41,071 nt of DNA from Kagunavirus LF7074P1: sequence record OZ035758.1. The stretch is one strand, 5' to 3'. Made by a program: the position numbers and the translations under genes. Position 1 is the first letter of the stretch; every line of letters starts with the position of its first letter. Shown here piece by piece: positions 1 through 41,071 of the stretch. The notes under the pieces are model-generated. The model was not told where the DNA came from and searched no databases. It worked only from the letters and a program-made list of their open reading frames with translations.

Positions 1-33
1 GTAACAACGAATATGGGCGAGGTAGAGGAATGA
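1..33 (+). CDS. Probable C-terminal 11 codons of the terminase small subunit ORF that runs off the 3' end of the window (circular permutation)
   Basis: Frame of the open ORF ending at 41071 continues exactly at nt 1 and reaches TGA at 31-33, overlapping TerL ATG at 30-32 (ATGA coupling). Confidence 0.35.
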   Translation, partial: VTTNMGEVEE

Positions 34-2795: not shown

Positions 2796-2816
2796 AGCCC
2801 CGAAAGGGGCTTTCTT
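2796..2816 (+). terminator. Intrinsic terminator-like hairpin after portal gene
   Basis: agcccc-gaaa-ggggct stem-loop followed by ttctt. Confidence 0.5.
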
Positions 2817-4359: not shown

Positions 4360-4364
4360 ACTGA

Positions 4365-4385
4365 AGCCCCGAAAGGGGCTTTTTA
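4365..4385 (+). terminator. Rho-independent terminator
   Basis: agcccc-gaaa-ggggct hairpin followed by TTTTT. Confidence 0.75.
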
Positions 4386-4433
4386 GTGCCTGTGATTATT
4401 CCAGTTATTCCACTCAATTGTAAATGTTGGAAT

Positions 4434-4451
4434 AAACTATTCGAATAGTTT
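4434..4451. repeat. Perfect 18-bp palindrome AAACTATTCGAATAGTTT
   Basis: Read directly; lies in 316-bp intergenic region and is preceded by ATGTTGGAATAA, which recurs at 5207-5218. Confidence 0.8.
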
Positions 4452-4655
4452 ACTTTTCACCAAAAATGTGCTAAGCTCCACCTGAGCTTGTGAAGTATGA
4501 ACAAGCGACCGCGGCGCGGGCAGGTAACGGAGCGGGACGTAAGTCCTGAGTGTAGTTACGCTGACGCGTTCGGAAGGGCCATACTCTATTGCTTGTGTAA
4601 AAAGTAACTGGTTTACTGAGATTACGCCGTTTCTATGTTTAAATGATAAGGACTA

Positions 4656-4681
4656 GCGCCCCGCTTTAAGGCGGGGCTTTA
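4656..4681 (+). terminator. Terminator-like hairpin
   Basis: gccccgc-tttaag-gcggggc stem followed by ttt. Confidence 0.45.
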
Positions 4682-6895: not shown

Positions 6896-6920
6896 ACAAA
6901 GGGGCTTCGGCCCCTTTTTA
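6896..6920 (+). terminator. Rho-independent terminator
   Basis: ggggc-ttcg-gcccc hairpin followed by TTTTT. Confidence 0.75.
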
Positions 6921-10573: not shown

Positions 10574-10598
10574 AAGGCCCCGAAAGGGGCCTTTTTCT
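10574..10598. terminator. Bidirectional intrinsic terminator between convergent genes
   Basis: aggcccc-gaaa-ggggcct hairpin flanked by A-run upstream and T-run downstream. Confidence 0.75.
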
Positions 10599-31421: not shown

Positions 31422-31450
31422 ACTATAATAGCGAACTATTCACTTGTCAA
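31422..31450 (-). promoter_or_regulatory. Sigma70-like promoter P6 (TTGACA-17-TATAGT), leftward early promoter
   Basis: Minus strand TTGACAagtgaatagttcgctatTATAGT. Confidence 0.65.
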
Positions 31451-31474: not shown

Positions 31475-31483
31475 TGGTACTAT
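31475..31483 (+). promoter_or_regulatory. Extended -10 promoter element (TGgTACTAT) for the XRE regulator gene
   Basis: TGn motif directly upstream of TACTAT; no convincing -35; about 30 nt upstream of ATG 31515. Confidence 0.4.
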
Positions 31484-31514
31484 TCACATATCAACTGACT
31501 AAGGAGTAATTGAC

Positions 31515-35038: not shown

Positions 35039-35067
35039 TTGCACACCCCAACATAATAGGATACTAT
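35039..35067 (+). promoter_or_regulatory. Sigma70-like promoter P1 (TTGCAC-17-TACTAT), rightward early promoter
   Basis: TTGCACaccccaacataataggaTACTAT; conserved leader ...aaacgagacagaggag... to ATG 35102. Confidence 0.65.
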
Positions 35068-35101
35068 TCACTTATCGAAACGAGACAGAGGAGTGAGGGT
35101 T

Positions 35102-36282: not shown

Positions 36283-36311
36283 TTGCACACTAAGATAGAA
36301 TAGGCTACTAT
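36283..36311 (+). promoter_or_regulatory. Sigma70-like promoter P2 (TTGCAC-17-TACTAT)
   Basis: TTGCACactaagatagaataggcTACTAT; conserved leader ...aaacgagaggggag... to ATG 36343. Confidence 0.65.
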
Positions 36312-40336: not shown

Positions 40337-40436
40337 GACTGCTAACCATTCCGAATGCCTGGGCTATTGCCGTAGCTAACGACCATTACGGCGGCGATGG
40401 TAAAAGAGCACCACGACATGGCCTATACAACTGATA

Positions 40437-40459
40437 CAAGCCCTCTACGGAGGGCTTTT
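40437..40459 (+). terminator. Intrinsic terminator
   Basis: agccctc-tacg-gagggct hairpin followed by tttt. Confidence 0.65.
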
Positions 40460-40482
40460 CTGTACATCCCGCCCAATCCCCT

Positions 40483-40488
40483 TATATA
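40483..40488 (+). promoter_or_regulatory. Candidate -10 element (TATAAT) of late/terS promoter lacking a clear -35
   Basis: Consensus hexamer about 70 nt upstream of terS ATG; no TTGACA-like -35 at the proper spacing. Confidence 0.35.
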
Positions 40489-40494
40489 ATCCCT

Positions 40495-40538
40495 TTAGAC
40501 GCGTAGGGCGCGTCTGATGCGCTCTGATGGTCAGACGC
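40495..40538 (+). other. Two adjacent inverted repeats in the terS leader
   Basis: AGACGCG-taggg-CGCGTCT and ATGCGCTCTGA-tgg-TCAGACGCAT, flanked by outer AATCCCC ... GGGGATT inverted repeat. Confidence 0.6.
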
Positions 40539-40555
40539 ATACGAAAGGGGATTCT

Positions 40556-41071
40556 ATGAAGCTGAAACTCAAGCAGCCATCGCCAGAGGTGGTGCAAGCT
40601 GCACATGAAGAAGCTGTTAGCGCAAACCGTCGACGTAAACGACCGCGCGGTAAACAGAGCCTTTATCAATCGTCCCGTAATTCCGCCGCGTTGTGGGACC
40701 CGGACTATTGCGACGAATTGATTCGTTTCTTCGACCGCACGTCATGGGAGTCTATGCCGACCGGTGCACACGGAGACTACAAAGCTGTCATTGCGGACAA
40801 GCCACCGTCACTGGCCCGCTTTGCATTGCACATCGGCGTCACTATCCCGATTATTAAGTTGTGGCTGCGTGAGATTCCAGCTTTTGCAGAAGCATATGAA
40901 ACAGCACAGGCGCTGGAAGAGGCATACTTCACTGAGACGGGGGCCGCGGGTATCTCCGCTACGTTTGCTGCCGCGAAGCTGGGCCTCGGTAAAGAGAAAC
41001 CAGTTGAATCTACAGAAGAAACAGCACCGACTGAGATTATTTTCAGTGTTGCAGAGCCTGTAGGTAAAATC
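40556..41071 (+). CDS. Putative terminase small subunit, truncated by window end (continues in frame at nt 1-33)
   Basis: ORF with RBS aaagggg, 172 codons without stop to the last base; basic N-terminus (RRRKRPRGK); missed by the ORF track because there is no stop inside the window. Confidence 0.5.
   Translation, partial: MKLKLKQPSPEVVQAAHEEAVSANRRRKRPRGKQSLYQSSRNSAALWDPDYCDELIRFFDRTSWESMPTGAHGDYKAVIADKPPSLARFALHIGVTIPIIKLWLREIPAFAEAYETAQALEEAYFTETGAAGISATFAAAKLGLGKEKPVESTEETAPTEIIFSVAEPVGKI

What the first reader, a model, noticed from the sequence alone, without database searches (positions are those of the whole stretch)
40460..40555. Structured terS leader with nested inverted repeats and a -35-less promoter
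Between the terminator at 40437 and the terS start there is a TATAAT without a recognisable -35, followed by two adjacent hairpins built from repeated GACGC/TCTGA units, all bracketed by an outer 7-bp inverted repeat. This could be an activator-dependent late promoter with operator, a translational control structure for terS, or part of the packaging recognition site.
Basis: seen in the sequence. Interest (0 to 1): 0.45.

Follow-up and report, generated by a model that had tools for sequence, protein, structure and literature searches.

The report
Conserved two-hairpin RNA leader before terS
Just before the DNA-packaging gene terS of this virulent E. coli phage lie a promoter and a 45-base RNA leader of two hairpins; the leader is conserved, with compensating mutations, across several genera of enterobacterial tailed phages, matches no described RNA family, and has no known function.

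Summary
The window is a complete Kagunavirus genome (Guernseyvirinae). Behind the terminator of the preceding operon (40439-40461) lies a sigma-70-type promoter: -10 TATAAT at 40485-40490, and a weak but present -35, TGTACA, 18 nt upstream.

About 7 nt after the -10, two adjacent hairpins begin (40496-40516 and 40517-40540). An unpaired linker, the Shine-Dalgarno sequence and the terS ATG (40556) follow.

The hairpins act as RNA on the + strand:
- They recur in Kagunavirus, Jerseyvirus, Cornellvirus, phiEap-2, Dhillonvirus, Eiauvirus, Klebsiella phages and uncultured phages whose TerS is only 27-32% identical.
- 96% of alignment cells are paired, and 14 of 20 pairs change on both sides.
- G.U outnumbers A.C 50 to 3.
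- The loops are kept: Y(A/U)GG-G and A-UGG-U.

This argues against a DNA operator or a pac site. The leader matches no Rfam family and not the HK022 put RNAs.

The outer inverted repeat pairs the promoter spacer and -10 region with the Shine-Dalgarno sequence. It could form only on RNA that reads through the terminator. Its support is uneven across clades.

Function is inferred, not shown. The most likely role is a 5'-terminal leader that stabilises or marks the promoter's own transcripts and is read by a conserved, probably host, factor. A put-like antiterminator remains possible.

The parts
40439..40461 (+). Intrinsic terminator of the preceding rightward operon: stem AGCCCTC/GAGGGCT, loop TACG, tail TTTTCT. 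The tail overlaps the -35 hexamer.
   Evidence: Read from the sequence and folded as a hairpin in every relative. The stem changes in a compensated way between clades. The simple scan did not list it.
40461..40466 (+). Weak -35 hexamer TGTACA (4 of 6), 18 nt from the -10.
   Evidence: Promoter scan, 10 of 12 matches overall. Kept in Kagunavirus and Jerseyvirus although their spacers differ. Other clades use TTGCCT N17 or an extended -10.
40475..40483 (+). 5' arm of the outer inverted repeat, AATCCCCTT. It lies inside the promoter spacer and is complementary to the Shine-Dalgarno region. It is present only in RNA that reads through the terminator.
   Evidence: It varies without compensation in some Kagunavirus relatives (AATCACC, AATACCC, AATCCAC). 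In those, a second register (TATAATCCCTTT, 40485-40496) takes over in the predicted fold.
40485..40490 (+). -10 hexamer TATAAT.
   Evidence: It is TATAAT or TACAAT at the same distance from hairpin 1 in all clades. The -10 window of 37 Kagunavirus loci showed zero nucleotide diversity; the windows in that script were offset by one base.
40497..40497 (+). Predicted transcription start (A, 7 nt after the -10), which is the first base of the hairpin 1 core stem. Inferred, not mapped.
   Evidence: Inferred from the usual spacing between -10 and start, and from hairpin 1 beginning 7-8 nt (range 4-10) after the -10 across the clades.
40496..40516 (+). Hairpin 1: 7-bp core AGACGCG/CGCGUCU, an outer U.G pair, and loop UAGGG (or U.G closing an AGG triloop).
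   Evidence: 8 of its 9 pairs change on both sides across clades, and 94.9% of cells are paired. The GGG of the loop is invariant in 27 distinct sequences.
40517..40540 (+). Hairpin 2: lower stem AUGCG/CGCAU, bulged C40522, upper stem UCUGA/UCAGA, loop UGG.
   Evidence: 6 of its 11 pairs change on both sides, and 97.1% of cells are paired. The A-UGG-U tip is constant in all clades, with one UGA variant in a metagenome contig.
40544..40553 (+). Shine-Dalgarno region AAAGGGGATT. Bases 40545-40553 form the 3' arm of the outer repeat.
   Evidence: Unpaired in the transcript modelled from 40497. Paired in the read-through model.
40556..41071 (+). terS (terminase small subunit). It runs past the window end and finishes near window position 33 of the circular map.
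   Evidence: PHROG 3064 'terminase', E = 6e-70. The reading frame continues at window 1-33. Annotated as terminase small subunit in relatives.

Best explanation
The interval is the start of the packaging and head-gene operon of a virulent siphophage.

Shown:
- An intrinsic terminator ends the preceding operon.
- Overlapping its tail is a sigma-70-type promoter with a perfect -10 and a weak -35.
- The DNA from about 7 nt after the -10 encodes two adjacent hairpins that are conserved as RNA base pairs on the + strand in at least eight phage clades.
- The loop tips, Y(A/U)GG-G and A-UGG-U, are kept throughout.
- The hairpin region evolves about 16 times more slowly than third codon positions of terS.
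- The element occurs once per genome.

Inferred: transcription starts at about A40497. The 45-nt double hairpin is then the extreme 5' end of the terS mRNA, followed by an unpaired A-rich linker, the Shine-Dalgarno sequence and the AUG.

Most likely mechanism (inferred): the leader acts in cis as a 5'-terminal structured cap on the promoter's own transcripts.
- A stem at the very 5' end hinders 5'-end-dependent decay by RppH and RNase E. This is established knowledge for the ompA hp1 hairpin and the T7 phi10 leader, recalled from memory.
- The fixed loop tips suggest that a conserved partner also reads the leader. That partner is more likely a host component than a phage protein.

Second layer (inferred, uneven support): on RNA that escapes the upstream terminator, the promoter spacer and -10 region are transcribed and pair with the Shine-Dalgarno region. 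The structure closes into a three-way junction and keeps terS silent. Transcripts from the internal promoter lack that arm and are translatable, as in T4 genes e, soc, 49 and I-TevI.
For: - Identity of the genome: 99.5% to Kagunavirus LF7074P1 and P3.
- Promoter.
- Structure: the hand-built alignment of 27 distinct sequences gives 96.1% paired cells, 14 of 20 pairs with changes on both sides, and covariation 0.466 against 0.178 in shuffles (0 of 500 reach it). Versions with partners slid by 1-3 columns score 0.10 or less.
- Unfitted check: RNAalifold on the plain MAFFT alignment still recovers both hairpin cores, with 6 of 9 pairs compensated.
- RNA rather than DNA: 418 Watson-Crick, 50 G.U and 3 A.C cells in the 18 core pairs.
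- Held-out validation: a covariance model built without them finds L064 (E = 1e-8), Edwardsiella phage eiAU-183 (E = 2e-5) and a metagenome contig (E = 5e-13), each directly upstream of terS.
- Single copy in the window.
- Constraint: nucleotide diversity in 37 Kagunavirus loci is 0.017 in the hairpins, 0.088 in the spacer and 0.274 at terS third codon positions.
- Anchoring to the promoter: the distance from the -10 to hairpin 1 is nearly fixed, whereas the distance from hairpin 2 to the Shine-Dalgarno sequence ranges from about 3 to 14 nt.
- Free ribosome site: the transcript modelled from 40497 leaves the Shine-Dalgarno sequence and AUG unpaired.
- Outer pairing: present in the minimum-energy fold of read-through RNA in Kagunavirus, Jerseyvirus, phiEap-2, one Cornellvirus-like phage (SE1) and Dhillonvirus. 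Jerseyvirus TACAATCC pairs with GGATTGTA and Kagunavirus TATAATCCC with GGGATTATA, so the C/T difference in the -10 is matched by G/A after the Shine-Dalgarno sequence.
- Modelled accessibility of the Shine-Dalgarno sequence is 0.18-0.44 in read-through RNA against 0.54-0.70 from +1 in most clades.
- T4 precedent: PMC3014915.
Against: - No transcript 5' end, half-life or binding partner has been measured. The only transcriptome paper found for a Kagunavirus gives no start sites.
- A plain stabiliser needs only a stem. It does not explain the fixed loop tips or the bulge.
- The fold of the short transcript is only mildly better than shuffles (z = -1.77, 8 of 200).
- The outer pairing is not significant in several clades (p from 0.002 to 0.94). 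It is absent in eiAU, L064, L084 and L085. It varies without compensation in some Kagunavirus relatives.
- A strong terminator directly upstream should leave little read-through RNA to silence.
- My structural alignment was fitted by hand to the proposed structure, which inflates pair counts somewhat.
Confidence: 0.6

Rival explanations
1. The two hairpins are a put-like cis-acting antiterminator. The nascent leader binds host RNA polymerase as it emerges and makes it resistant to the intrinsic terminators inside the roughly 11-kb head operon.
For: - The arrangement resembles HK022 putL: two adjacent stem-loops that begin at the very start of a long operon transcript and need no phage protein (PMC9378689).
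- Fixed loop tips across hosts from E. coli to Edwardsiella fit a host partner.
- The operon contains + strand terminator-like hairpins with no room for a new promoter behind them: 2796-2811 (11 nt before the next ATG), 4364-4381, 4658-4677 and 6898-6917 (a Shine-Dalgarno sequence follows directly). It ends at the bidirectional terminator 10574-10593.
Against: - The element is 45 nt, against about 73 nt for put with its bulges and triplex.
- Neither covariance model finds anything in the HK022 region that holds putL and putR (best E = 3 and 4.9).
- Leaky internal terminators, for example after the capsid gene, are common in phage late operons without dedicated antitermination (general knowledge).
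- There is no functional test.
Confidence: 0.13
2. The hairpins are an RNA operator for a trans-acting protein (phage-encoded, possibly TerS itself, or host-encoded) that sets the amount or timing of TerS translation. It would work by blocking 30S access next to the ribosome binding site.
For: - Two hairpins present similar NGG tips, as expected for a dimeric or repeated binder.
- In this window hairpin 2 ends 4 nt before the Shine-Dalgarno motif and 15 nt before the AUG, which is inside the ribosome footprint.
- Constraint on the hairpins is far stronger than a stem alone needs.
- The element is found only in front of one TerS family.
Against: - The distance from hairpin 2 to the Shine-Dalgarno sequence is not kept (about 3-14 nt), whereas the distance to the -10 is.
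- TerS itself has diverged to 27-32% identity while the loops are constant.
- The loops lack the GGA motif that CsrA needs.
- No candidate protein was identified.
Confidence: 0.17
3. The inverted repeats are DNA sites: either the pac recognition site bound by TerS, or an operator for a transcriptional activator or repressor of the late promoter.
For: - Pac sites of headful phages lie in or next to terS (P22, Sf6, SPP1; recalled from memory).
- The repeats sit between +1 and +44 of a promoter with a weak -35.
- In this genome the arms share the word AGACGC.
Against: - One-sided changes are tolerated almost only when they give G.U on the + strand (50 G.U against 3 A.C). Those would be mismatched half-sites in DNA.
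- The shared word is lost in other clades while the pairing is kept.
- The asymmetric loop bases are the most conserved part.
- The -35 and spacer carry no conserved site across clades.
- Record start points of relatives scatter over 40470-40517 and follow annotators' conventions, not physical ends.
Confidence: 0.05
4. The region is coding. terS starts at the in-frame ATG at 40517, 13 codons upstream, as many GenBank records annotate it, or a short leader peptide is translated from it.
For: - ATG or GTG is kept at this position in most clades, and the loop of hairpin 1 (AGGG) lies 8 nt upstream like a Shine-Dalgarno sequence.
- The frame is open into terS in Kagunavirus, Jerseyvirus, phiEap-2 and Shemara. 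Shemara, and the records that begin at this ATG, are annotated that way.
Against: - SE1, GRNsp27 and ZS have a TGA stop after 9 codons.
- In Dhillonvirus the upstream ATG is out of frame with terS or stops early.
- eiAU has no such ATG.
- Substitutions follow base pairing, not codon position.
- The downstream ATG has the strong, conserved Shine-Dalgarno sequence in every clade.
Confidence: 0.04

Closest known systems
5'-terminal stabiliser hairpins of bacterial and phage mRNAs (E. coli ompA 5' UTR hp1; the T7 phi10 / gene 10 leader stem-loop). Recalled from memory, not tested here.
   Same: A stem-loop that begins within a base or two of the transcript start. An unpaired stretch and a strong ribosome binding site follow, at the head of highly expressed phage late genes.
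   Different: Here there are two hairpins with fixed loop tips and a bulge, conserved across genera far beyond what a stem alone requires. The 5' end is predicted, not mapped. No sequence similarity to those leaders.
T4-type temporal translational control (genes e, soc, 49, I-TevI): the ribosome binding site is sequestered in long early transcripts, and a promoter is embedded in the 5' arm of the inhibitory helix (PMC3014915).
   Same: The 5' arm of the outer helix (promoter spacer and -10 region) is complementary to the Shine-Dalgarno region and lies upstream of the predicted start. Only read-through RNA can form it.
   Different: The promoter is a sigma-70 type, not a T4 late promoter. The helix encloses two extra conserved hairpins. 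A strong terminator sits just upstream. Support across clades is uneven.
HK022 putL / putR antiterminator RNAs (PMC9378689).
   Same: Two adjacent stem-loops in cis at the start of a long phage operon, with no dedicated phage protein required. Internal terminators lie downstream.
   Different: 45 nt against about 73 nt. No match between my covariance models and the HK022 put region. The element sits in the head operon of virulent phages, not the early operons of lambdoid phages. Activity is untested.
Lambda nut sites and rrn antitermination (boxA + boxB). Recalled from memory.
   Same: In Kagunavirus, the 5' arm of hairpin 2 reads CGCUCUGA, 7 of 8 matches to lambda boxA CGCUCUUA, next to a hairpin.
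   Different: The boxA-like word is base-paired and is lost in every other clade (UAUGA, GCCGA, GCGUA, UUGGA). I judge it coincidental.

Membership tests
Sigma-70 promoter | -10 hexamer close to TATAAT | tested here: met
   TATAAT at 40485-40490. TATAAT or TACAAT in all clades at a fixed distance from hairpin 1.
Sigma-70 promoter | -35 hexamer close to TTGACA at 16-18 nt | tested here: inconclusive
   TGTACA, 4 of 6, 18-nt spacer. Other clades have TTGCCT N17 or an extended -10, TGnTATAAT. Weak but plausible.
Sigma-70 promoter | Mapped transcription start | not testable with these tools
   No 5' end data. The one Kagunavirus RNA-seq paper gives none.
Intrinsic terminator (upstream, 40439-40461) | G+C-rich stem followed by a U tract, with the stem kept by compensating changes | tested here: met
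   AGCCCTC/GAGGGCT followed by TTTTCT. GCCCGC/GCGGGC and AGCCCGCC/GGTGGGCT in relatives. Not listed by the simple scan.
Any Rfam family | Covariance-model match at the gathering score or at a low E-value | tested here: not met
   No matches in the whole window at gathering score. Nothing below E = 1.8, and nothing centred on the hairpins, in 40380-40620.
HK022 put RNA | Two stem-loops in cis just downstream of the promoter of a long operon | tested here: met
   Hairpins at 40496-40540, predicted +1 at 40497. The putL layout is from PMC9378689.
HK022 put RNA | Sequence and structure similarity to putL / putR (about 70 nt, bulged stems) | tested here: not met
   Models R1 and R2 give only E = 3 or worse in HK022 20000-40751. 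The element is 45 nt.
HK022 put RNA | Terminator read-through that depends on the RNA polymerase beta' zinc-binding domain | not testable with these tools
   Needs transcription assays.
T4 gene e-type sequestration of the ribosome site with an internal promoter | Sequence complementary to the Shine-Dalgarno region upstream of the start, with the promoter within that arm | tested here: met
   AATCCCCTT (40475-40483, in the spacer) and TATAATCCCTTT pair with AAAGGGGATT.
T4 gene e-type sequestration of the ribosome site with an internal promoter | The helix is kept or covaries in relatives | tested here: inconclusive
   Duplex p against shuffles ranges from 0.002 to 0.94 by clade. The -10 and post-Shine-Dalgarno C:G / T:A match holds in Jerseyvirus and Kagunavirus. 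No predicted effect in eiAU, L064, L084 and L085.
5'-terminal stabiliser hairpin | The stem begins within about 2 nt of the 5' end | tested here: inconclusive
   Hairpin 1 begins 7-8 nt after the -10 in most clades, but the start is only predicted.
5'-terminal stabiliser hairpin | Lengthens mRNA half-life | not testable with these tools
   Needs rifampicin-chase experiments.
pac site of a headful-packaging phage | Duplex DNA site recognised by TerS, in or near terS | tested here: not met
   The location fits, but the substitution pattern is RNA-like (50 G.U against 3 A.C). The loops are constant while TerS is 27-32% identical.
pac site of a headful-packaging phage | Packaging-series ends map to the site | not testable with these tools
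   No read data. Record start points of relatives are not consistent.
CsrA / RsmA binding leader | GGA motifs in hairpin loops | tested here: not met
   The loops are Y(A/U)GGG and UGG. There is no GGA except by chance in eiAU.

The most novel reading that the evidence does not exclude
The 45-nt double hairpin is a compact RNA that binds host RNA polymerase, a functional analogue of HK022 put. It would carry the polymerase through the four internal terminators of the head operon. That would be the first protein-independent processive antiterminator in virulent phages and in a late or structural operon, and it would be shared by hundreds of Guernseyvirinae and Dhillonvirus genomes plus the few sequenced Eiauvirus and Klebsiella-phage relatives.
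Probability: 0.12. Interest if true: 0.8.

Novelty: new member of a known kind. Interest (0 to 1): 0.55.

Why it matters
The leader is one of the most constrained stretches near terS in hundreds of sequenced phages now being developed for therapy and biocontrol: 468 records match the Guernseyvirinae leader and 153 are Dhillonvirus. Yet it is unannotated and absent from Rfam.

Practical consequences:
- It marks the true terS start. Many GenBank records begin the gene, or the genome, at an ATG inside hairpin 2.
- It defines the start of the packaging and head operon.
- It gives a compact RNA with clear covariation on which to test how virulent siphophages that rely on host RNA polymerase control late gene expression.

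If the fixed loop tips turn out to bind RNA polymerase, the ribosome or an RNase, the element would be a new handle on host takeover and a portable expression part.

Tried and rejected
- Rfam, whole window at gathering score and the region at E up to 10: nothing relevant.
- HK022 put homology by covariance model: no match.
- A second copy of the element in the genome, or in loci of more distant TerS relatives (L096-L140, L144, L145): none.
- Prophage copies through TerS relatives in 185,579 bacterial genomes: none found.
- boxA/boxB reading: the boxA-like word is confined to Kagunavirus and is base-paired.
- CsrA sites: no GGA.
- RfaH ops element: no GGTAG core.
- Upstream ATG as the terS start or a leader peptide: stop codons or frame shifts in several clades.
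- Repeated GACGC/TCTGA words as protein-binding repeats: not kept outside Kagunavirus.
- An alternative pairing special to Kagunavirus (GCGUCUGA 40510-40517 with UCAGACGC 40531-40538) is possible here but cannot form in other clades, so I did not pursue it.
- Literature searches for promoters, transcription starts or leader structures in these genera found nothing usable.
- A degenerate DNA pattern scan of the large collections: I estimated hundreds to thousands of chance matches, so I did not run it.

Full report
**What the window is.** The last 772 bases match Kagunavirus LF7074P1 and P3 at 99.5-99.6%, and the K1G and K1H group at about 90%. The window length equals a whole genome of this genus. 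The open reading frame that starts at 40556 runs off the end and finishes at about position 33 of the window. It belongs to PHROG 3064, 'terminase', and relatives annotate it as terminase small subunit. This is therefore the terS leader of a virulent, Jersey-like siphophage (Guernseyvirinae), not of a lambdoid phage.

**Check of the observation.** All the described features are in the sequence:
- A terminator hairpin at 40439-40456 with a TTTTCT tail.
- TATAAT at 40485-40490.
- Hairpin 1 at 40497-40515 (AGACGCG / UAGGG / CGCGUCU), plus an outer U.G pair 40496/40516.
- Hairpin 2 at 40517-40540 (AUGCG, bulged C, UCUGA / UGG / UCAGA, CGCAU).
- The outer repeat AATCCCC(TT) at 40475-40483 with (AA)GGGGATT at 40545-40553.

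The 111-nt stretch folds into exactly this three-way arrangement at -35.4 kcal/mol, z = -2.76.

The claim of no recognisable -35 needs correction. TGTACA lies 18 nt upstream, and the promoter scores 10 of 12 overall.

**Relatives.** I collected the region from several sources:
- 50 IMG/VR loci through TerS.
- Annotated phages: phiEap-2, SE1, GRNsp27, Shemara, ZS, Edwardsiella phage eiAU-183, a Proteus phage and Bas85.
- 80 more loci through a TerS alignment.
- One metagenome contig.

The same layout recurs: terminator, -10, 7-8 nt, hairpin 1, 0-3 nt, hairpin 2, linker, Shine-Dalgarno sequence, terS. It is found in these clades:
- Kagunavirus.
- Jerseyvirus.
- Cornellvirus and allied unclassified Guernseyvirinae (SE1, GRNsp27, ZS).
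- phiEap-2.
- Dhillonvirus (153 records).
- Eiauvirus.
- Klebsiella phages 37P2 and VLCpiS11a.
- An uncultured clade (L084, L085, L143).

TerS identity between these groups and the window is only 27-32%. More distant TerS relatives (L096-L140, L144, L145) lack the element. No relative was found in bacterial genomes.

**The hairpins are RNA.** On a hand-built structural alignment of 27 distinct sequences (A6):
- 96.1% of cells form standard pairs.
- 14 of 20 pairs show changes on both sides.
- The covariation score is 0.466 against 0.178 for shuffles (0 of 500 reach it) and 0.10 or less when partners are slid by 1-3 columns.

That alignment was fitted to the structure, so I ran two independent checks. 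RNAalifold on the plain MAFFT alignment A3 recovers both hairpin cores, with 6 of 9 pairs compensated. A covariance model built without them finds L064, eiAU-183 and L143 at E = 1e-8, 2e-5 and 5e-13.

Examples of the changes:
- Hairpin 1 is AGACGCG/CGCGUCU here, GGCGGGC/GUCCGCC in eiAU, AGGUGG/CCACCU in L064 and GUGGCC/GGCCGC in the Klebsiella phages.
- The upper stem of hairpin 2 is UCUGA/UCAGA, UAUGA/UCAUA, GCCGA/UCGGC, GCGUA/UACGC or UGCGA/UCGCA.

Among the 18 core pairs there are 418 Watson-Crick, 50 G.U and only 3 A.C cells. This asymmetry is the signature of an RNA helix read from the + strand. It is not expected for a DNA palindrome, a cruciform or the opposite strand.

The loop tips stay fixed: the GGG of loop 1, and A-UGG-U of hairpin 2. 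Within 37 Kagunavirus loci, nucleotide diversity is 0.017 in the hairpins, against 0.088 in the promoter spacer and 0.274 at terS third codon positions. The element occurs once in the genome.

**The promoter.**
- The -10 is TATAAT or TACAAT in every clade, at a near-constant distance from hairpin 1.
- The spacer and -35 differ: TGTACA N18 in Kagunavirus and Jerseyvirus; TTGCCT N17 in the Cornellvirus group, phiEap-2 and the Klebsiella phages; TGnTATAAT in Dhillonvirus.
- With the usual spacing the start falls at A40497, the first base of the hairpin 1 core stem. This is an inference; no 5' end data exist.
- The distance from hairpin 2 to the Shine-Dalgarno sequence varies from about 3 to 14 nt. 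The element is therefore anchored to the transcript start rather than to the ribosome site.
- A transcript modelled from 40497 folds into the two hairpins and leaves the Shine-Dalgarno sequence and AUG free.
- Elsewhere this genome uses another promoter class, TTGCAC or TTGACA, then N17, then TACTAT(TCAC). The terS promoter stands apart from it.

**The outer repeat.** Its 5' arm lies in the promoter spacer, and in a second register in the -10 plus the following C-rich bases. That is upstream of the predicted start, so it can exist only in RNA that reads through the terminator.

In such RNA the minimum-energy fold pairs it with the Shine-Dalgarno region in Kagunavirus, Jerseyvirus, phiEap-2, SE1 and Dhillonvirus. 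Jerseyvirus TACAATCC pairs with GGATTGTA, and Kagunavirus TATAATCCC with GGGATTATA. The -10 difference is thus matched after the Shine-Dalgarno sequence.

Statistically the signal is uneven:
- Duplex energy against dinucleotide shuffles gives p from 0.002 to 0.94 by clade, and 0.02 for the window.
- Modelled Shine-Dalgarno accessibility falls from 0.54-0.70 to 0.18-0.44 in most clades, but not in eiAU, L064, L084 or L085.
- Some Kagunavirus relatives change the distal arm without compensation.

The arrangement is that of T4 genes e, soc, 49 and I-TevI (PMC3014915). I treat it as a plausible second layer, not as established.

**What it most likely does.** Shown: a promoter, and a conserved, single-copy, + strand RNA structure at the head of the packaging and head operon. 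Inferred: the structure is the 5' terminus of the mRNA.

The simplest mechanism is a 5'-terminal stem that protects the transcript from 5'-end-dependent decay, as in ompA hp1 and the T7 phi10 leader (from memory). The fixed loop tips and bulge go beyond that. They suggest a conserved reader, more likely from the host, because the phage proteins have diverged and the hosts range from Escherichia to Edwardsiella.

Rivals:
- **A put-like antiterminator.** It is attractive because the operon has + strand terminators at 2796, 4364, 4658 and 6898 with no room for promoters behind them, and it ends at 10574-10593. Also, putL begins at +3 of its transcript (PMC9378689). However, the element is smaller, and my models do not match the HK022 put region.
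- **A translational operator for an unknown protein.** This remains possible.
- **DNA readings (pac site, operator).** These are disfavoured by the G.U pattern.
- **A coding reading from the upstream ATG at 40517.** Stops and frame shifts in several clades argue against it.

**Novelty and verdict.** No Rfam family matches, and literature searches found no description. This is a new, well-supported structured RNA motif of a known general kind, a cis-acting mRNA leader placed next to its promoter. It is widespread in enterobacterial siphophages, and its function is unknown. Of its three interpretations, the promoter stands, the DNA operator and pac site are unlikely, and translational control survives only in modified form.

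Noticed in passing
window 40517-40558, and relatives (L026, L035, L038, L044, L047, L054; SETP3 EF177456.2): Many GenBank and IMG/VR records of Jersey-like phages open the genome, or start the terS CDS, at the in-frame ATG/GTG inside hairpin 2, 39 nt upstream of the well-supported start. SE1, GRNsp27 and ZS have a stop in that frame, so this looks like an inherited annotation convention rather than the true start.
   Followed up: partly
window 4382-4657: A stretch of about 280 nt without an ORF inside the head-gene cluster. It is bounded by two + strand terminator hairpins (4364-4381 and 4658-4677). It could hold a small non-coding RNA gene or a remnant. There was no Rfam match in the whole-window scan.
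   Followed up: no
window 35039-35071, 36283-36311 (+ strand); 13065-13024 (- strand); the word GGTACTATTCAC also at 31476-31487 (+ strand); TTGACA N17 TATAGT sites near 31450, 28948 and 25460 (- strand): A recurring phage-specific promoter-like module, cTTGCACAc, then N, then ataGGnTACTATTCAc. The -10-side word GKTACTATTCAC occurs 3 times against 0.28 expected by chance. It is distinct from the terS promoter and probably marks the early or middle promoter class.
   Followed up: partly
window 2796-2811, 4364-4381, 4658-4677, 6898-6917, 10574-10593: + strand terminator-like hairpins inside the head operon. Two (2796 and 6898) are followed within about 11-20 nt by the next gene's start, leaving no room for a promoter. 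Downstream genes therefore depend on read-through. 10574-10593 is bidirectional and separates the operon from a three-gene island on the - strand.
   Followed up: partly
L096-L110, L112-L114, L118 and similar loci (about 30-kb IMG/VR contigs with TerS 31-38% identical to that of Dhillonvirus phage Bas85, the search query): These distant relatives lack the two-hairpin leader. Between a TATAAT promoter and terS they carry a terminator-like hairpin with a U run (GCGGATCGAAAGAGCCGCTTTTTT). This suggests an attenuator-type leader.
   Followed up: no
window 40510-40517 with 40531-40538: In Kagunavirus only, the 3' arm of hairpin 1 (GCGUCUGA) is perfectly complementary to the 3' arm of hairpin 2 (UCAGACGC). 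This allows an alternative 8-bp helix that would disrupt both hairpins. Other clades cannot form it.
   Followed up: partly
It belongs to PHROG 268, of unknown function. Relatives with an identical leader carry different genes at this position.
   Followed up: partly
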